DNA from: Shigella phage vB_SboD_StarDew
Length of the DNA: 44,715 nt
Reading direction: 5' to 3' (one strand)
Sequence record: NC_073082
The position numbers were made by a program, and so were the translations under genes. The notes below the pieces were generated by a model. The model saw only the letters and a program-made list of their open reading frames with translations, searched no databases and was not told the origin of the DNA. Of this stretch, positions 16,693-24,112 are shown one piece after another; the stretch's first letter is position 1; each line of letters begins with the position of its first letter.

Positions 16693-17300
16693 CCACATTT
16701 AAATTATACGGCGTTTTAGGACGTCGATTCGGTAAAGTGCATAAGCTGGACTGCTTCACTCCAGGCGAGGGTATCACCGGCCTGTGCGTGAAGTTACCCG
16801 GCTTACAGGACTTTCTAATGTCGGCCCACCTGGACAATATGATGTTCAAGGTGCGCAAAGGCGACCACACGATGACCGGCTATGATGAGCTGGGCGAGTT
16901 CCACGGCAACCGCGTAGTTACCATCGCGCCGGTTATGACGGGCGCAAAAAGAGGGTTGGGACAATTGCTGGCGGGTGTCGCGATCGTTGTGGCGTCGTTC
17001 TATACGGGCGGACTTGCTACTGCCGCTTTCGGGGCTTCGGCTGCAACAGCTGCCGCTATCGGAACGGCGACGTTTTCGTTCGGGATGTCGATGGCGCTGG
17101 GTGGCGTTATGCAATTGCTGTCGCCACAACCGAAAGGATTGCAGACAAGGCAGGACGTGGATAACAAAGCGTCGTACGCGTTCGGCGGGCCAGTGAATAC
17201 AACAGCGCAAGGCACGGCGCTTGGTGTATTATGGGGCGAGCGTGAGATCGGCGGCGCTATTATTTCAGCCGGAATCGTAACCGAGGACTTGAACGAATGA
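16683..17300 (+). CDS. tail assembly protein I-like
   Basis: 205 aa with Gly/Ala-rich hydrophobic C-terminal half; between K and J; ATGA overlap with J. Confidence 0.7.
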   Translation: MAMTTFKLYGVLGRRFGKVHKLDCFTPGEGITGLCVKLPGLQDFLMSAHLDNMMFKVRKGDHTMTGYDELGEFHGNRVVTIAPVMTGAKRGLGQLLAGVAIVVASFYTGGLATAAFGASAATAAAIGTATFSFGMSMALGGVMQLLSPQPKGLQTRQDVDNKASYAFGGPVNTTAQGTALGVLWGEREIGGAIISAGIVTEDLNE

Positions 17301-20300
17301 CGATTATCTACGACGTCACAGGGCATAAAGGCGGCGGCGGCAAACAGCACACCCCGCAGGAGACGCCCGATAGCCTGCATTCGCTGGCTAAAATCCGCAT
17401 CTTGCTCGCGCTTGGGGAAGGGGAATTCGAAAGTATTACCAGCGCCAGCGAATTGCGGCAGCGTGTTTACTTGGATGGAACGCCGATCCAGAACGCTGAC
17501 CTGTCCGAAAACTTCCCTGGCGCGCGTGTGGAGTTCCGCCCCGGCACACAGCACCAGGATGTGATCCACGGATTTTCAGCGGTGGAAAGTGAGCAATCTG
17601 TCGGCGTAAAACTGGAAAACGGCACGCCGTGGGTACGCCAGATTAACGATACCAGTCTGGACGCCGTGCGCATTCGTATCGGCATTCCGGCCCTGTACAC
17701 TAACGAAGATAATGGCGACCTGGTGGGCGGGCGCATCGACTATAAGATCGTTGTGTATACGGATAACGCCGACCCGCGTGAGTTCAGATTCGCCGCCGTT
17801 GGTAAAACAATGTCGCTGTATGAGCGCGACCACCGCATCGAATTACCGCCGAACGTGAATACCGGCTGGCGAGTGGAGGTGCACCGCATAACGGCGGACT
17901 CCACATCGGCGAAAGTGGTTAATGATATCCGGGTGCAGTCCATCACTGAGATTATTGACGCCCGCCTGCGTTACCCGCTAACCGCGCTGTTGTTTGTGGA
18001 GTTCGACGCCAAAGCGTTCCAGAACATCCCGCGCGTGTCCATTAAGTGCAAAGGTCGCAAAGTTCTAATACCGAACAACTACGACCCGATCAATCATACC
18101 TATTCCGGGGACTGGGACGGCACGTTTAAACGCGCATGGACGGATAACCCTGCGTGGCACTGGTACGATATTTGTATTACTGAGCGCTTCGGCCTCGGTC
18201 GGCGTATCAAACCGCAAATGCTAAACCGATACGCGCTCTACCAGATTGCGCAGCGCTGCGATCAGTTGGTCAGCGACGGCAACGGTGGTCGAGAAATCCG
18301 CTTTAAGAATGATATGTACATTCAGTCACAGACGGATGCCTGGACAGTGCTTAAGGATTTAGCCGCCATCTTCGCCGGAATGACCTGGTGGGGTAACCAG
18401 ATGTTGAATATTGTCAGTGACCAACCGGTCGCAGCAGTGTCGCACACTATCACCAACGCCTCGGTAATTGATGGTCGATTCGACTACGCATCTGGCAGCC
18501 AGAAAACGCGCTATTCCACATTCGCGGTAGCATACGGCAATCCGAAAAACCACTATGAAGATGCTATCGCAACGGGGCAACGTGTCGAACTGGTACGCCG
18601 CCATAAGATTAACCGTCTTGATATTACGGCGATCGGCTGTACGCGTGAATCTGAAGCGCAACGCCGCGGGCACTGGGCGCTAATTTCCAACCAGCTTGAC
18701 CAGCAAGTTAGCTTTAAAGTTGGCATGGAAGGGTTATTCTTTATTCCAGGTAGCGTAGTCGCGATCGCGGATACAAACATTTCTGGCGGTTTTGAGACGC
18801 GCGGCGGTCGACTGTTGTCGGACCCCGGAACGCGTACCGTGCTGAACACGGACAGCGAAATCACATTCCGCCCTGGCGATAAGTTCCTGGTGCGCACCGA
18901 TAGCGGTAATGTGGAGACTCGCGAGATCGCCAGCGTCAACGGCAACAAGGTAACGCTAAAAACCGCACTGGACGCCAACCCTATTCCTGACCAGCCGTTT
19001 TGCGTTGACGGGGATGATATCCAGTTGCAAAAATTCCGCATCACCGATCTGGAATATGACGACTCTACGAGCACTTTCTCGGTGCGCGGGATTGAATATA
19101 ACGATAGCAAATATGATGCCGTTGATAATGGCGCGCGCCTAGACCCGGGCATCTTTACACAAGTGCCGGACGGTGTAATGAAGGGGCCGGAATCCGTGAC
19201 TATAACTCCGTCGCAGATTTCATCGCAAGGCCAGCTAATCACCAACGTGGATATTGTTTTCCCGCCGGTGAAAGATGCCGTGGTGTATGAAATCCAGTGG
19301 AGGCGCACCAGCTTACAGAATATGGAAATCCAGTGGGGTAACGACTGGGTGAATATCCCGCGCACGGCGTCGAATGGCGCGCACATCCCCAACGTGTTCT
19401 CCGGTAACTATCAGGCACGCGTCCGCGCAATCGGTATGGGTGAAATCTCGTCCCCGTGGGTGTCGTCCCCCATCACGCCGATCGAAGGTCGCCTCGGTGG
19501 GCTTAACGCACCAATCATCACCAACGCGATTTCAGGTTTGCACCAGATCCTATGGAAGTGGAACCACAACAACGCCGCGACGGATATCTCTTACACAGAG
19601 CTTGAAGTGCGCAAGACGGGCGAAACGGAATGGAAATTCCTGTCCAACGTCCCATACCCTGGGGCAGAGTATGCGCAAACGTCGCTGGAGTTCGGGATTT
19701 ACCAGCAGTTGCGCGCCCGTGTGGTGGATAAAATCGGCAACCGGTCGGACTGGTCGGCCCCGTTTGAAGGGCAGGTGAGTGACAAAGTTGACGAGTACAT
19801 GAAGGGGCTTGATGACGAGTTCTTGACTTCCGAGGATGGTAAACGCTTCCAGGAAGCTATTAACACGATCCCGCAAGGCATATATGAAGCGATGCTCACC
19901 GACGCGCAGCAATTGTTCAACGCCCGCGCCGAGTACAAGGGGATTTATGCGGAAATCTCGGTCGCGTATAACGTGGCGGCGGACGCCCACAAGGCGGTCG
20001 CTCAACTGGAGACGTTGATCGGCACGCGACTTGATGACGCGGAAGCTGCGATCCACACGTTGCAGACCGCGCAGAGCACACAGGAACAAGCATTCGCCCA
20101 GTACCAGCAAACTGTTGCCGCTAAGTTCGGGGAACAGGAAGCCGCCATCCAGCAGGTACAAACGGCAACCGCAGACGTGGCGGGAGCGCTGGCGGAATAT
20201 AAGACCCAGGTCGCGACACAGTTCGGTCAGCAGTCCGCCGCTATCGAGCAGAAGATGACGTCCTCGTTTAACCACTCTGGTGGTAGTGCCACGTATAGCC

Positions 20301-20743
20301 TTAAGGCTGGCGTGACGTATAACGGGACTTACTATGATGCGGGTATGCAGCTTTCCGTTGTGACGTCTGGCAACGCGGTTAAATCGCGTATTGCGTTCAA
20401 GGCGGACCAGTTCTACATCATGCACCCATCTAATGGGTCGCTTTCGTCCGCGTTTATTGTTGACGGTGGTCAGGTGTACATCGACACCGCCCGCATCAAG
20501 AATGCGTCGATCAACTTTGCGCAGATCACGGACACGCTGCAATCAAATAACTTCGCTTCAGGGTCACGCGGCTGGCGAATCCAGAAAGGCGGCGCTGCAG
20601 AGTTTAACGAAGTAACCGTCCGCGGAAACCTGTACGCCACATCGGGTAACTTCGGGTTTTCTGGTGGGACCGTGACGATCGACAAGACAGGCGTCAACGT
20701 GCCGTTGCCCGGCGGTGGAAGGGTGAAAGTAGGGACGTGGTAA
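17297..20743 (+). CDS. host specificity / central tail fiber protein J-like
   Basis: 1148 aa; position after M-L-K-I block; followed by terminator. Confidence 0.85.
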   Translation: MTIIYDVTGHKGGGGKQHTPQETPDSLHSLAKIRILLALGEGEFESITSASELRQRVYLDGTPIQNADLSENFPGARVEFRPGTQHQDVIHGFSAVESEQSVGVKLENGTPWVRQINDTSLDAVRIRIGIPALYTNEDNGDLVGGRIDYKIVVYTDNADPREFRFAAVGKTMSLYERDHRIELPPNVNTGWRVEVHRITADSTSAKVVNDIRVQSITEIIDARLRYPLTALLFVEFDAKAFQNIPRVSIKCKGRKVLIPNNYDPINHTYSGDWDGTFKRAWTDNPAWHWYDICITERFGLGRRIKPQMLNRYALYQIAQRCDQLVSDGNGGREIRFKNDMYIQSQTDAWTVLKDLAAIFAGMTWWGNQMLNIVSDQPVAAVSHTITNASVIDGRFDYASGSQKTRYSTFAVAYGNPKNHYEDAIATGQRVELVRRHKINRLDITAIGCTRESEAQRRGHWALISNQLDQQVSFKVGMEGLFFIPGSVVAIADTNISGGFETRGGRLLSDPGTRTVLNTDSEITFRPGDKFLVRTDSGNVETREIASVNGNKVTLKTALDANPIPDQPFCVDGDDIQLQKFRITDLEYDDSTSTFSVRGIEYNDSKYDAVDNGARLDPGIFTQVPDGVMKGPESVTITPSQISSQGQLITNVDIVFPPVKDAVVYEIQWRRTSLQNMEIQWGNDWVNIPRTASNGAHIPNVFSGNYQARVRAIGMGEISSPWVSSPITPIEGRLGGLNAPIITNAISGLHQILWKWNHNNAATDISYTELEVRKTGETEWKFLSNVPYPGAEYAQTSLEFGIYQQLRARVVDKIGNRSDWSAPFEGQVSDKVDEYMKGLDDEFLTSEDGKRFQEAINTIPQGIYEAMLTDAQQLFNARAEYKGIYAEISVAYNVAADAHKAVAQLETLIGTRLDDAEAAIHTLQTAQSTQEQAFAQYQQTVAAKFGEQEAAIQQVQTATADVAGALAEYKTQVATQFGQQSAAIEQKMTSSFNHSGGSATYSLKAGVTYNGTYYDAGMQLSVVTSGNAVKSRIAFKADQFYIMHPSNGSLSSAFIVDGGQVYIDTARIKNASINFAQITDTLQSNNFASGSRGWRIQKGGAAEFNEVTVRGNLYATSGNFGFSGGTVTIDKTGVNVPLPGGGRVKVGTW

Positions 20744-20746
20744 ATG

Positions 20747-20771
20747 CGAAGGGGCCATCCGGCCCCTTTTC
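20747..20771. terminator. bidirectional terminator (GGGGCC-atcc-GGCCCC + TTTT) between J and convergent minus-strand gene
   Basis: Read directly. Confidence 0.6.
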
Positions 20772-21735
20772 AATACATATTCGGGATGACGAGTAGCGGG
20801 GTAGGTACGGCAATATTTTTACCCGGCATCTGAAATTGCTGCCGTGAGTAGTTGCCGATGACGCGGTTTTTAGCGACGCGCACATTATTACCCGCCATGC
20901 GGATTCCGTTCATGCGGACGTGGTTATAGCCCCCGTTGTTCTGAATCAGCGCTCCGGTGTATGAAAGCTGGATCAGGCTGTTTCCAATATTCTGGTCGCT
21001 CGTTCCGATGTTAATAGTGCGGTCATATACGAACGGCTTGTTCACCGTCGAGAACGTTACCTGATTCTGGTTATTCGTCATGGTAATCCCAGCCCCTGGC
21101 GTGGGTGGTGTATTGTTGAATATTACCAAATCCATGTCCACCGAAGCCGCCACATCGTCGATGCCACCGTAGGACGCGTTGCGGACGATAATACTGCCGC
21201 CATCGAAGCCAACTGATACGTTGCCGTCATCCCAGCGGGCGAACGGGACACCGCTAACAGGCAACGCCATACTCCCGTTGACGCGCACGCGCTTTGCGTA
21301 TCTGCAGGTCATCAGCTTCGCCACGTTGGATATTGCGGTGAAGTCCGTCGAGTTCGCCACCAGTAAACCCGCGTTACGCGACCCAACCGGCAGCACTTCC
21401 ATTATGACGCCCGCCCATTGTGGTAAACCGGAGTATGCGCCATACGCATCCTCCCCGCGCAGGGTGATTCCGCTATTACCGTTGCGAGTAACCGACGTAA
21501 CGTAAAACGGATCTGGTATTACCAGGGTCTGGTCGAATACCTCAATCACTTCTACAGGGCGAGTGAGCGCGACGACGACCTGCGACCCAGCCGTAAGAGG
21601 GGTGTTAATGGTTAGCGTCTTGTTGGACTGTGCCCGCTGGTTAAAGCTGGTGCAGTATGCCGGCGCGCGAAGCCCTGCGGTGATCTCCATGCGCGGTCTT
21701 CCGTCGTTGTAGTCGATAAGTATTCCAGCGCCCAT
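20770..21735 (-). CDS. putative receptor-binding / tail fiber-like protein (321 aa), reverse strand
   Basis: Asn/Gly/Ser/Thr-rich beta-rich sequence; GGGAGTGG RBS before ATG at 21735; co-oriented with upstream lipoprotein gene. Confidence 0.45.
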   Translation of the reverse strand: MGAGILIDYNDGRPRMEITAGLRAPAYCTSFNQRAQSNKTLTINTPLTAGSQVVVALTRPVEVIEVFDQTLVIPDPFYVTSVTRNGNSGITLRGEDAYGAYSGLPQWAGVIMEVLPVGSRNAGLLVANSTDFTAISNVAKLMTCRYAKRVRVNGSMALPVSGVPFARWDDGNVSVGFDGGSIIVRNASYGGIDDVAASVDMDLVIFNNTPPTPGAGITMTNNQNQVTFSTVNKPFVYDRTINIGTSDQNIGNSLIQLSYTGALIQNNGGYNHVRMNGIRMAGNNVRVAKNRVIGNYSRQQFQMPGKNIAVPTPLLVIPNMY

Positions 21736-21737
21736 TA

Positions 21738-21959
21738 TTACCACTCCCGTGATTTAACTGATACTGTGCCTGAGAAATTGCCGTCGCTATCTGAAGACAG
21801 CCCAGTGAATCGCATGTCCACATCTCCTGCCGGTACTTTTTGCCCATCAACGTAGCGCAACATGCAGCTACCGTACGCAACCGTAATGCAATCGCCGTTG
21901 TTGCGTTCTACGGCGCAACCGGATAAAAGAACCGCACAAATCATAATTAAAGTTTTCAT
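21738..21959 (-). CDS. small lipoprotein (73 aa), candidate superinfection-exclusion protein (Llp/Cor-like role)
   Basis: Signal peptide plus lipobox (MKTLIMICAVLLSGCA); RBS GGGGATGA; track ORF 21738..22022 trimmed to ATG at 21959. Confidence 0.5.
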   Translation of the reverse strand: MKTLIMICAVLLSGCAVERNNGDCITVAYGSCMLRYVDGQKVPAGDVDMRFTGLSSDSDGNFSGTVSVKSREW

Positions 21960-22039
21960 GGTATCATCCCCTATATTTGGTTGAGTTTTAGTATTACACC
22001 GCTCAACCGGGATTGCAACCAATTTAAGAGGATTCAGCT

Positions 22040-24112
22040 ATGGCAGCGGGTACACTATCCGTAACGAATAACAGCAAGGCGGTTGTCGGGGTCGGCACAA
22101 CGTTTACGGCGTTTAAAGCGGGCGACTTCTTAACGCTGGTGGTGGGTCAAGTCCCATACACCGTAGCGATCGCGTCCGTTGAAAGTGCAACCGCGCTAAC
22201 GCTGGTGCTGCCGTTCGACGGCCCTACGGCAACCGGCCTAGCATGGGATGGCGTTAAGCGCGACACCATGTCGCTGGCGACGATGGGCGTAACCGTCCAG
22301 GCACAGAAAGCGTTGCGCTTGATGATCGCAGATGAAAACAACTGGCGTGCAATCTTCGGCGACGCTGAAGAAATCACAGTGACGTTACCTAACGGGCAAG
22401 TTATGCAGGGCATGTCGTGGGGCTATTTGTCCTCCTTGCTGAAGGAAGTAGACCCCGTTGAGATGCGCAACCTTCAACAACAGGCCGAGACGGCTAAAAA
22501 CCAAGCTGTTACCGCTAAGGGGCAGGCAGAATCGGCGCGCGACGCAGCTAATACGGCGAAGACTGGGGCGGAGACGGCACGCGACCAGGCTAACAATGCG
22601 AAGACCGACGCGCAGACCGCAAAAGGCCAGGCCGAATCCGCGCGCGACGCCGCTAACACTGCGAAGACCGGGGCGGAGAATGCCCGCAACCAGGCACAAG
22701 GCTATCGTGACGAGGCTGAAGGCTTTAAAAACCAGATTAACCCTTCGCAGTTTATGCAGAAGTCGCAAAACCTGAATGACGTTGCCGATAAAGCGAAGGC
22801 CCGCACTAACCTGGCGTTAAATCGTTTCAACCAGCCGCGCGCCGATTTAACCGAGGTGTACTCTAACGACGACCGTACGGGGTACAAGCTGATTGTAAAA
22901 GATAACGGCGACTGGGGTGCGATGAAACACGATGGTAGCGCGAATATGGCGCTAAGCATCGGTTTTGGTGGTACTGGTGGCAAGACCGGGGCTGAAGCAC
23001 GTGCGTCGCTGAACGTATTTAAACGTGACCGAACATCACTAGGAGAGAGAGATCTGGATACTATCGACGGCAGCGGCGACGGTCCAGGGGTGTATTTCCA
23101 GGCGTCGTCAGCCGCGGCAACGTCAGCGCGCCACTACCCGGAAGCGACAGCGGGGATGCTGGAGGTATTCCAGCACGGGGCAAATGGTGAGTCGGGGGCT
23201 ATCCAGCGCTACACGCCGTTTACGATCTTAGCTATTGCGCCGGAAGGCAGCCAGGAATATGCGCGCGCGGGAAAAGGCACATTCTATGTGCGGTCGAAAA
23301 ACGGTAACGCCCCTAAATGGTCGCCGTGGTTGCCGTTTCAGACGGGTCTTTATGGTGGCGTTGTCAGTTATCCGGGTACGCAGGAGCGCTCAAGTTGGAC
23401 GGATTATGTCAACGTACTCGCACAACAACCAAGCAGCATGGGGACGTATAACATTCGTTCAGTAGGTTGGGTGAATGCCATCTCATCCCGACACCTTAAC
23501 GGCACCGGCGATGGCAGCAATTACGGTGTTGTTTTTGAGGATGGGCAAATGGCGGCTACCCACTACAAAAACGTAACAGTAAGAAAACAGGTAGCTGGTA
23601 ACTGGATTAACCCCGTCACGTTATGGCATACAGGAAACACCACGGTTGACAGCAACGGCTTTGTGAAGCGCGCATCACCAATCGTGAAGGTGTTCGGGAC
23701 CGGTGATTTCGAGACTAACGACGAAAGCGAAGGATGCAAGGTCGAGAAAGTAGGCGTAGGAGAGTATCTCATCACCGGATGTATGGCGCTTAACGCTGAT
23801 CTGGCCTGGGGTGGCGTGCGTGGCGGTATTGAGGTGCCGAGGGATATTAACGGTCAGCCTATTTTGTGGGTTGATTATGAAGTCAACGCAGACGGTAGTC
23901 TTCTGCTTAAGACGTTCCATCGTGAACATCACGACGCGCCGGTGTTCGCACGTAATACGGTGCCGGGTTACTCAAACGGCGACCCTATTGATATTCCTAA
24001 CGATGTTTTTGTGTCAGTGCGTGTGGACATGCCAGAAGATTCGATTTACAACGTACGGGAGCGTGAGATGCGAGCGATTGCTGAGGTTGAGTTAGCAACG
24101 GGGGTAAGGTGA
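22040..24112 (+). CDS. tail fiber protein with internal tandem repeats
   Basis: 690 aa; AAGAGGA RBS; N-terminal domain shared with 14565 gene; Ala/Lys/Gln-rich repeat (GQAESARDAANTAKTGAE twice). Confidence 0.75.
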   Translation: MAAGTLSVTNNSKAVVGVGTTFTAFKAGDFLTLVVGQVPYTVAIASVESATALTLVLPFDGPTATGLAWDGVKRDTMSLATMGVTVQAQKALRLMIADENNWRAIFGDAEEITVTLPNGQVMQGMSWGYLSSLLKEVDPVEMRNLQQQAETAKNQAVTAKGQAESARDAANTAKTGAETARDQANNAKTDAQTAKGQAESARDAANTAKTGAENARNQAQGYRDEAEGFKNQINPSQFMQKSQNLNDVADKAKARTNLALNRFNQPRADLTEVYSNDDRTGYKLIVKDNGDWGAMKHDGSANMALSIGFGGTGGKTGAEARASLNVFKRDRTSLGERDLDTIDGSGDGPGVYFQASSAAATSARHYPEATAGMLEVFQHGANGESGAIQRYTPFTILAIAPEGSQEYARAGKGTFYVRSKNGNAPKWSPWLPFQTGLYGGVVSYPGTQERSSWTDYVNVLAQQPSSMGTYNIRSVGWVNAISSRHLNGTGDGSNYGVVFEDGQMAATHYKNVTVRKQVAGNWINPVTLWHTGNTTVDSNGFVKRASPIVKVFGTGDFETNDESEGCKVEKVGVGEYLITGCMALNADLAWGGVRGGIEVPRDINGQPILWVDYEVNADGSLLLKTFHREHHDAPVFARNTVPGYSNGDPIDIPNDVFVSVRVDMPEDSIYNVREREMRAIAEVELATGVR
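22490..22700 (+). repeat. in-frame tandem DNA repeat (about 102-bp unit, about 2 copies) inside tail fiber gene
   Basis: Repeated GGCCAGGC(A/C)GAATC(G/C)GCGCGCGACGC(A/C)GCTAA(T/C)AC(G/T)GCGAAGAC(T/C)GGGGCGGAGA read directly. Confidence 0.8.

What the first reader, a model, noticed from the sequence alone, without database searches (positions are those of the whole stretch)
20770..21959. Reverse-strand lipoprotein plus fiber-like protein pair embedded between the J gene and the tail fiber gene
A 73-aa lipoprotein (signal peptide plus LSGC lipobox) with its own TTGCAA-type promoter is followed on the same strand by a 321-aa Asn/Gly/Thr-rich beta-rich protein. Both run antisense to the surrounding tail genes and are bracketed by bidirectional terminators. 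The layout resembles T5 llp-oad and the Cor-type exclusion lipoproteins of T1-like and lambdoid phages, where the lipoprotein masks the receptor used by the adjacent receptor-binding protein. The 321-aa protein could be the true receptor-binding adhesin.
Basis: partly seen in the sequence, partly recalled or inferred. Interest (0 to 1): 0.6.

Follow-up and report, generated by a model that had tools for sequence, protein, structure and literature searches.

The report
Known LptD receptor-binding and exclusion module
The two reverse-strand genes are the already-characterised host-recognition module of LptD-targeting small coliphages: a tail-tip protein that plugs into the bacterial LPS-export channel LptD, and a small lipoprotein that blocks that same channel in infected cells.

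Summary
A 73-aa lipoprotein gene (21738..21959, -) sits 2 nt upstream of a 321-aa gene (20770..21735, -), between a J-like tail-tip gene and the lateral tail fibre gene of a Dhillonvirus genome.

The 321-aa protein is 318/321 identical to PDB 9RPT chain C. That chain is the receptor-binding protein (RBP) of phage Oekolampad (Bas18), solved by cryo-EM inserted into the extracellular face of the LptDE lipopolysaccharide translocon.

The lipoprotein is 100% identical to Oekolampad bas18_0026 and 36% identical to Rtp45 (PDB 9RPS). Rtp45 binds the periplasmic side of LptD and displaces loop EL4, so that the RBP cannot bind.

By sequence, however, the proteins belong to PF24052 and PF20051 (DUF6453), not to the Cor, Llp or pb5 families, and the receptor is LptD.

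Three details need correction:
- Only one terminator-like hairpin exists, on the J side.
- The proposed promoter is a weak consensus match, although partly conserved.
- The 321-aa protein did not look like a fibre: it was purified and modelled as one copy per LptDE.

Novelty: already known. Interest: low.

The parts
17297..20743 (+). J-like central tail fibre / tail-tip protein (1148 aa), the presumed scaffold that carries the RBP
   Evidence: PF24801, PF09327 and PF13550; phrog_31 'central tail fiber J'. 1125/1148 identical to Oekolampad bas18_0024.
20749..20768 (.). GC-rich hairpin (AAGGGGCC-ATCC-GGCCCCTT) in the 26-bp gap between the convergent J and RBP genes; a likely shared intrinsic terminator
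   Evidence: Folds at -19.0 kcal/mol (+) and -18.6 kcal/mol (-). The stem is conserved in 6 Dhillonvirus relatives, and Rtp has a different hairpin at the same place. The consensus scan did not list it.
20770..21735 (-). LptD-specific receptor-binding protein (321 aa, DUF6453/PF20051)
   Evidence: PF20051 E 8.8e-121. 318/321 identical to PDB 9RPT/9RPW/9RQI chain C. 99.7% to SO-1 gp23. 33% to Rtp44.
21744..21748 (-). GGGAG ribosome-binding site of the RBP gene, inside the end of the lipoprotein gene (translational coupling likely)
   Evidence: Read directly from the sequence. The lipoprotein stop TAA is at 21740..21738 and the RBP ATG at 21735.
21738..21959 (-). Outer-membrane lipoprotein (73 aa precursor; signal peptide residues 1-14, lipid Cys15); Rtp45-type superinfection-exclusion protein
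   Evidence: PF24052 E 1.8e-21. 100% identical to Oekolampad bas18_0026. 36% to Rtp45 and E 2e-8 to PDB 9RPS chain D. Cys15, Cys24 and Cys32 are invariant with Rtp45 and phiEco32 gp106.
21967..21971 (-). GGGGA ribosome-binding site, 7 nt before the lipoprotein ATG
   Evidence: Read directly from the sequence.
21990..22018 (-). Candidate sigma-70 promoter of the lipoprotein-RBP operon (TTGCAA, 17-nt spacer, AATACT, with TG upstream of the -10)
   Evidence: 8/12 match, below the scan threshold. The -10 region is invariant and the -35 partly conserved in Dhillonvirus relatives. Not experimentally mapped.
21979..22008 (.). Inverted repeat GGTTGAG-N16-CTCAACC overlapping the candidate -10; unknown role (possibly an operator), not a terminator because no T-run follows
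   Evidence: Unique in the window, with 0 expected in shuffles. In PEC9 and Bas84 a T>C change in the left arm is matched by A>G in the right arm; in AV129 and CHD2B1 it is not.
22040..24112 (+). Lateral tail fibre protein (690 aa); a separate adhesin for the primary (glycan) receptor, not part of the LptD module
   Evidence: PF25670 E 6.1e-57 and tail-fibre PHROGs. Only 295/578 aligned residues identical to the Oekolampad fibre.

Best explanation
The pair is the terminal-receptor module of an LptD-dependent Dhillonvirus.

- The 321-aa protein is made without a signal peptide. It is presumably attached non-covalently to the distal end of the J-like tail tip (inferred).
- At infection it inserts deeply into the extracellular mouth of an open state of the LptD barrel, contacting loops EL3-5 and EL11. 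This commits the phage to DNA injection. The binding is shown for the 99%-identical Oekolampad protein.
- The 73-aa protein is exported, lipidated at Cys15 and sorted to the inner leaflet of the outer membrane.
- By analogy with Rtp45, it docks on the periplasmic side of LptD between LptE and LptM. A hairpin pushes up through the lumen and displaces EL4, which makes LptD unable to accept the RBP.
- The result is that infected cells and their debris neither admit a second phage nor trap progeny.
- The two genes form a two-gene operon, with a 2-nt gap and a coupled RBS. It is transcribed against the tail genes from its own start region and ends at a hairpin shared with J.
For: - RBP: 318/321 identity to PDB 9RPT/9RPW/9RQI chain C (differences A26S, E95D, A215T).
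- The only RBP residue the main text names at the interface, Gln299, which H-bonds LptD Ser350, is present.
- Cryo-EM, pull-down and resistant-mutant data for Oekolampad are in PMC12685063.
- Genetic assignment of LptD as the Bas18 receptor, and of this locus as the RBP locus, is in PMC8594841. It is re-confirmed across phages in bioRxiv 10.64898/2026.04.02.716166.
- Lipoprotein: identical to SE-Oeko; PF24052 76 bits against a cut-off of 27; homologous to Rtp45 of 9RPS.
- The lipid Cys and the Cys24-Cys32 pair align with Rtp45 Cys30-Cys38 (SI Fig. S5).
- The same gene order and orientation (J, then RBP and lipoprotein on the opposite strand) occurs in Rtp, SO-1, Oekolampad and four other Dhillonviruses.
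- Homologues occur in 422 (RBP) and 326 (lipoprotein) phage records.
Against: - Nothing was tested on this phage itself.
- The Oekolampad-type lipoprotein could not be expressed by Dunbar et al., so its binding to LptD rests on 36% identity to Rtp45.
- In-vivo exclusion by this allele was not found in the papers read.
- How the RBP attaches to J is unknown; the tail-proximal part is disordered in the cryo-EM map.
- In-vitro complex formation was very slow and required a degraded LptD jellyroll domain.
- The three substitutions could not be mapped to the interface, because the contact table is an image.
- The promoter and terminator are sequence inferences only.
Confidence: 0.92

Rival explanations
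1. The lipoprotein is a Cor-type exclusion protein that inactivates FhuA, as in T1, phi80 and N15, and the phage uses FhuA.
For: Weak PHROG match to 'Cor superinfection exclusion protein' (phrog_1119, E 6.5e-4). Some Dhillonviruses do use FhuA.
Against: - The Cor match covers only residues 1-30, i.e. the signal peptide and lipobox.
- The best families are phrog_4281 (E 1.9e-33) and PF24052.
- FhuA-type Dhillonviruses carry a different allele at this locus.
- The identical lipoprotein belongs to LptD-dependent Oekolampad.
Confidence: 0.02
2. The 321-aa protein is a host-directed membrane protein or 'moron', as annotated in PHROGs and RefSeq, and not a virion adhesin. Receptor specificity would then lie in J itself, as in lambda.
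For: phrog_1265 is labelled 'membrane protein; moron, auxiliary metabolic gene and host takeover'. Many records copy this annotation. The gene is on the strand opposite to the tail genes.
Against: - No signal peptide or hydrophobic segment is visible in the sequence.
- The 99%-identical protein is soluble and binds the extracellular face of LptDE at 2.8 A, and LptD point mutants that block infection abolish that binding.
- Allelic variation at this locus, not in most of J, tracks receptor use.
Confidence: 0.02
3. The molecular mechanism is the same, but the selected benefit of the lipoprotein is protecting progeny virions from futile adsorption to LptD in lysed-cell debris, rather than excluding incoming phages. 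This was proposed for T5 Llp and for Rtp45. It is not mutually exclusive with the best explanation.
For: This is a virulent phage type with no lysogeny module noticed. The BASEL authors and Dunbar et al. state both roles. Co-transcription with the late-acting RBP would fit expression late enough to matter at lysis (inference).
Against: No timing data exist. A sigma-70-like promoter would also allow early expression.
Confidence: 0.3

Closest known systems
Oekolampad (Bas18) bas18_0025 / bas18_0026 (RBP-Oeko and SE-Oeko; PDB 9RPT, 9RPW, 9RQI)
   Same: - The RBP is 318/321 identical and the lipoprotein 73/73 identical.
- The locus is the same, between J and the lateral tail fibre, in the same orientation.
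- The region is 95.5% identical at the nucleotide level.
   Different: - There are three conservative RBP substitutions (A26S, E95D, A215T).
- The neighbouring lateral tail fibre is a different allele (690 vs 606 aa, about 51% identity).
- The rest of the genome is about 92-93% identical to other Dhillonviruses.
Phage Rtp rtp44 / rtp45 (Rtp45-LptDE complex, PDB 9RPS)
   Same: - Both proteins fall in the same Pfam families (PF20051, PF24052).
- The gene order and orientation relative to J are the same.
- The lipid Cys and the disulfide pair are conserved.
   Different: - Identity is only 33% (RBP) and 36% (lipoprotein).
- Rtp is a Drexlerviridae phage.
- In Rtp the two genes overlap by 1 nt, whereas here there is a 2-nt gap.
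- The C-terminal third of the lipoprotein differs in length.
T5 pb5 (oad) / Llp acting on FhuA
   Same: The logic is the same: a dedicated RBP at the tip of the central fibre, and an adjacent gene for a small periplasm-facing outer-membrane lipoprotein that makes the receptor refractory to the RBP.
   Different: - No sequence homology was found.
- The receptor is LptD, not a TonB-dependent transporter.
- Exclusion is by steric displacement of EL4 through the lumen rather than long-range allostery.
- The genes here look co-transcribed.
Cor lipoproteins of T1, phi80, N15 and HK022
   Same: Small phage lipoproteins encoded next to the J-type tail-tip gene that block the phage's own outer-membrane receptor.
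   Different: Similarity is confined to the signal peptide (phrog_1119 residues 1-30). Cor acts on FhuA. It is a different protein family.

Membership tests
LptD-binding RBP family (PF20051 / DUF6453; Rtp44, RBP-Oeko) | Full-length match to the family profile above the curated threshold | tested here: met
   403 bits against a cut-off of 25, covering residues 4-297 of 321. phrog_1265 E 4.9e-122.
LptD-binding RBP family (PF20051 / DUF6453; Rtp44, RBP-Oeko) | Close identity to a member with a solved receptor complex | tested here: met
   318/321 identical to PDB 9RPT chain C. Gln299 is present.
LptD-binding RBP family (PF20051 / DUF6453; Rtp44, RBP-Oeko) | [quoted passage not shown] | tested here: met
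LptD-binding RBP family (PF20051 / DUF6453; Rtp44, RBP-Oeko) | Physical binding to LptDE and LptD-dependent infection by this phage | not testable with these tools
   Shown only for Oekolampad.
LptD-binding RBP family (PF20051 / DUF6453; Rtp44, RBP-Oeko) | Predicted fold matches RBP-Oeko | tested here: inconclusive
   Single-sequence AlphaFold2 gave mean pLDDT 28.9, which is unusable. The test is redundant given 99% sequence identity.
Rtp45-type exclusion lipoproteins (PF24052 Phage_lipoprotein) | Profile match above the curated threshold | tested here: met
   76.3 bits against a cut-off of 27, residues 3-73. phrog_4281 E 1.9e-33.
Rtp45-type exclusion lipoproteins (PF24052 Phage_lipoprotein) | Sec/SPII signal peptide with a lipobox and an outer-membrane sorting residue at +2 | tested here: met
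   MKTLIMICAVLLSG|C-A, read from the sequence. No predictor program was available.
Rtp45-type exclusion lipoproteins (PF24052 Phage_lipoprotein) | Conserved intramolecular disulfide pair (Rtp45 Cys30-Cys38) | tested here: met
   Cys24 and Cys32 align with it and are invariant in three divergent members (SI Fig. S5B).
Rtp45-type exclusion lipoproteins (PF24052 Phage_lipoprotein) | Binds the periplasmic face of LptD and confers exclusion | not testable with these tools
   Shown structurally for Rtp45 only. SE-Oeko could not be expressed.
Cor superinfection exclusion proteins (phrog_1119) | Homology over the mature protein | tested here: not met
   The match is limited to residues 1-30, E 6.5e-4.
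T5 Llp / pb5 | Sequence homology to Llp or pb5 | tested here: not met
   PDB sequence searches returned only 9RPT-type and 9RPS chains. No T5 chain appeared at E <= 1 for the lipoprotein or E <= 0.01 for the RBP. No Pfam match.

The most novel reading that the evidence does not exclude
The Oekolampad-type lipoprotein has never been shown to bind LptD. It is only 36% identical to Rtp45 and has a different, longer C-terminal segment. It could therefore engage LptDE differently, for example by threading further through the lumen or being surface-exposed via LptDE, as Dunbar et al. speculate for small lipoproteins. In addition, the conserved inverted repeat over the operon's -10 could be an operator that times expression of the RBP and its own antagonist from a single transcript.
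Probability: 0.1. Interest if true: 0.35.

Novelty: already known. Interest (0 to 1): 0.1.

Why it matters
For this window it matters only as annotation. The phage can be predicted with high confidence to use LptD as its terminal receptor and to be excluded by its own lipoprotein. Database labels such as 'membrane protein / moron' or 'hypothetical protein' for the 321-aa gene are wrong. The biology itself, a phage adhesin that captures an open state of an essential LPS translocon plus a lipoprotein that blocks it from the periplasm, is important but was published in 2021-2025.

Tried and rejected
- **Structure prediction.** Single-sequence AlphaFold2 of the 321-aa protein gave pLDDT 28.9. It was discarded and no fold search was run.
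- **Promoter and terminator scan.** I presume the hairpin was missed because the maximal stem uses up part of the T-run. The hairpin was checked by folding and by conservation instead. The scan's own hits lie inside coding sequence, number no more than the shuffles give, and were ignored.
- **NCBIfam.** No family matched either protein.
- **Mapping the three substitutions.** I tried to place A26S, E95D and A215T on the LptD interface using the paper's supplement, but the contact table is an image and could not be read.
- **Cor membership.** Rejected.
- **Regulon-wide operator.** I searched for the inverted repeat elsewhere in the window, by analogy with the Rtp52 repeats of phage Rtp (my recollection). 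It occurs only once.
- **Tandem repeats.** Tandem Repeats Finder found nothing in the tail fibre gene. The repeat finder did find a diverged 105-nt duplication.
- **Technical note.** Loci L002 and L003 never appeared in the Python sandbox, so the Rtp comparisons were done with protein comparison.

Full report
**What is there**

The window is genome-sized (44.7 kb) Dhillonvirus sequence, about 92-93% identical in nucleotides to many deposited E. coli Dhillonviruses. Around the finding it is 95.5-95.7% identical to Sodalis phage SO-1 and Escherichia phage Oekolampad (Bas18).

- A 73-aa ORF at 21738..21959.
- A 321-aa ORF at 20770..21735.

The two are 2 nt apart, and a GGGAG ribosome-binding site for the second gene lies inside the end of the first. 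They therefore look like one operon.

The 73-aa product begins MKTLIMICAVLLSG|CA. This is a textbook lipoprotein signal peptide with lipobox LSGC, and Ala at +2 implies outer-membrane sorting. The 321-aa product has no signal peptide or hydrophobic segment. It is rich in V, G and N and poor in K and E.

**Flanking signals**

The 26-bp gap between the convergent J and RBP genes holds a GC-rich hairpin (20749-20768).
- It folds at about -19 kcal/mol on both strands.
- It is conserved in six Dhillonvirus relatives.
- Phage Rtp has a different hairpin at the same position.
- It is followed by TTTT on the + strand and by a poor T-run on the - strand.

It is a plausible shared terminator, though the consensus scan did not list it.

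On the other side there is no terminator. This matches only 8/12 of the sigma-70 consensus and falls below the scan threshold. Its -10 is invariant among the relatives, while the -35 varies.

A unique inverted repeat, GGTTGAG-N16-CTCAACC (21979-22008), overlaps the -10. One arm position co-varies in two relatives but not in two others. Its role is unknown.

**What it is**

- The 321-aa protein is a full-length member of PF20051 (DUF6453; 403 bits) and the lipoprotein a member of PF24052 (76 bits).
- Against the PDB, the 321-aa protein is 318/321 identical to chain C of 9RPT, 9RPW and 9RQI. The differences are A26S, E95D and A215T.
- The lipoprotein matches chain D of 9RPS, 'Phage lipoprotein', at E 2e-8.
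- It is 100% identical to Oekolampad bas18_0026 and 36% identical to Rtp45.
- The lipid Cys and the Cys24/Cys32 pair align with Rtp45 Cys30/Cys38 (SI Fig. S5B of the paper).

**How it works (from the literature on near-identical proteins)**

Maffei et al. 2021 (PMC8594841) established three things:
- Small siphoviruses carry allelic 'bona fide RBP loci' with cognate exclusion genes just downstream of gpJ.
- The allele present predicts the terminal receptor.
- Seven such phages, including Oekolampad, are blocked by in-frame lptD deletions.

Dunbar et al. 2025 (PMC12685063) solved the Oekolampad RBP bound to LptDE at 2.8 A. Their findings on the RBP were as follows:
- The RBP inserts deeply into the extracellular lumen of an open, 27-stranded state of LptD, with an interface of about 1,700 A2.
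- It contacts loops EL3-5 and EL11; for example, RBP Gln299 bonds LptD Ser350.
- LptD point mutants D352Y and Y671N block both infection and in-vitro binding.

They also solved LptDE-Rtp45. The lipoprotein sits on the periplasmic side between LptE and LptM. It sends a hairpin up the lumen and displaces EL4 by up to 20 A, which sterically precludes RBP binding.

A 2026 preprint re-confirms the association between this locus and the receptor across many phages.

Gln299 is conserved in the window's protein.

The best explanation is therefore an LptD-specific RBP plus its Rtp45-type exclusion lipoprotein, with confidence about 0.92.

Steps that remain inferred for this allele:
- That the Oekolampad-type lipoprotein itself binds LptD. 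Its expression failed in that study.
- That the RBP is attached to the J tip.
- The promoter, the terminator and the timing of expression.

The T5 llp/oad and Cor comparisons are correct as functional analogies but not as family assignments.
- The Cor PHROG matches only the signal peptide.
- No T5 chain is recovered in the PDB sequence searches.
- The receptor is LptD rather than FhuA.
- Exclusion is steric rather than allosteric.
- 'Fiber-like' is not apt. The protein was purified and modelled as one copy per LptDE and plugs into the barrel. PDB nevertheless labels the chain 'Tail fiber protein', and PHROGs and RefSeq mislabel the family as 'membrane protein / moron'.

**Distribution**

- RBP homologues occur in 422 phage records and lipoprotein homologues in 326. 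These include Dhillonvirus, Drexlerviridae, Queuovirinae and Klebsiella phages.
- The J / RBP / lipoprotein arrangement is conserved in Rtp, SO-1, Oekolampad, PEC9, Bas84, AV129 and CHD2B1.

**Side observation, outside the window**

Kuravirus podophages such as phiEco32 carry distant members of both families, but unlinked.
- phi32_21 (PF20051, E 1.2e-23) lies directly after the tail-fibre and needle genes and before the transglycosylase ejection protein.
- phi32_106 (PF24052, E 2.4e-36) lies among small early-region genes. It keeps the lipid Cys and the disulfide pair.
- By gene order, phi32_21 would correspond to gp19 of SU10. The SU10 virion-structure paper does not mention gp19.
- No paper in the searchable library links Kuravirus to LptD.

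This suggests, without proving, that LptD may be a terminal receptor for these podophages as well.

**Verdict**

The feature is already known, near-identical to a structurally characterised module, so interest is low (0.1).

Noticed in passing
Outside the window: phiEco32 NC_010324.1 20445-21476 (L008:3446-4477) and 66050-66331 (L009:2551-2832): Kuravirus podophages encode unlinked members of both LptD-module families. A DUF6453 protein (phi32_21, E 1.2e-23) lies between the tail needle/fibre genes and the ejection proteins. A PF24052 lipoprotein (phi32_106, E 2.4e-36) lies among small early-region genes and keeps the lipid Cys and disulfide pair. No paper in the searched library links Kuravirus to LptD, and the SU10 structure paper never mentions the corresponding gp19. 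LptD may be a terminal receptor of these podophages.
   Followed up: partly
window 21979-22008: A unique inverted repeat, GGTTGAG-N16-CTCAACC, overlaps the candidate -10 of the lipoprotein-RBP operon in the 80-bp divergent region shared with the lateral tail fibre gene. One arm position co-varies in PEC9 and Bas84 but is mismatched in AV129 and CHD2B1. It could be an operator. It is not a terminator.
   Followed up: partly
window 22040-24112 (repeat at 22481-22690): The lateral tail fibre (690 aa) is a different allele from Oekolampad's (606 aa; 295/578 aligned residues identical), even though the flanking RBP module is near-identical. It contains a diverged 105-nt internal duplication (74% identity) that encodes an Ala/Gln-rich coiled-coil-like segment (weak Alanine_zipper match). 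This is the usual mosaic exchange at the fibre locus.
   Followed up: partly
Klebsiella and Enterobacter phage records, e.g. OX335370.1 10772-10996 and NC_043469.1 10994-11218 (lipoprotein hits); OX335422.1 20785-21738 (RBP hit): In the Klebsiella phage records, the lipoprotein-homologue hits lie near 11 kb in some genomes and the DUF6453-homologue hits near 20 kb in others. I never placed both hits in the same record. If the two genes are unlinked there, as in Kuravirus, adjacency would not be universal for this pair.
   Followed up: no
Database records matching window 20500-22300: Near-identical Dhillonvirus genomes are deposited as 'Sodalis phage SO-1', 'Acinetobacter phage NJ01' and 'Campylobacter phage' records. 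The LptD-type RBP module and the overall identity to coliphages make these host labels doubtful. The family is widely mis-annotated as 'membrane protein' or 'moron'.
   Followed up: no
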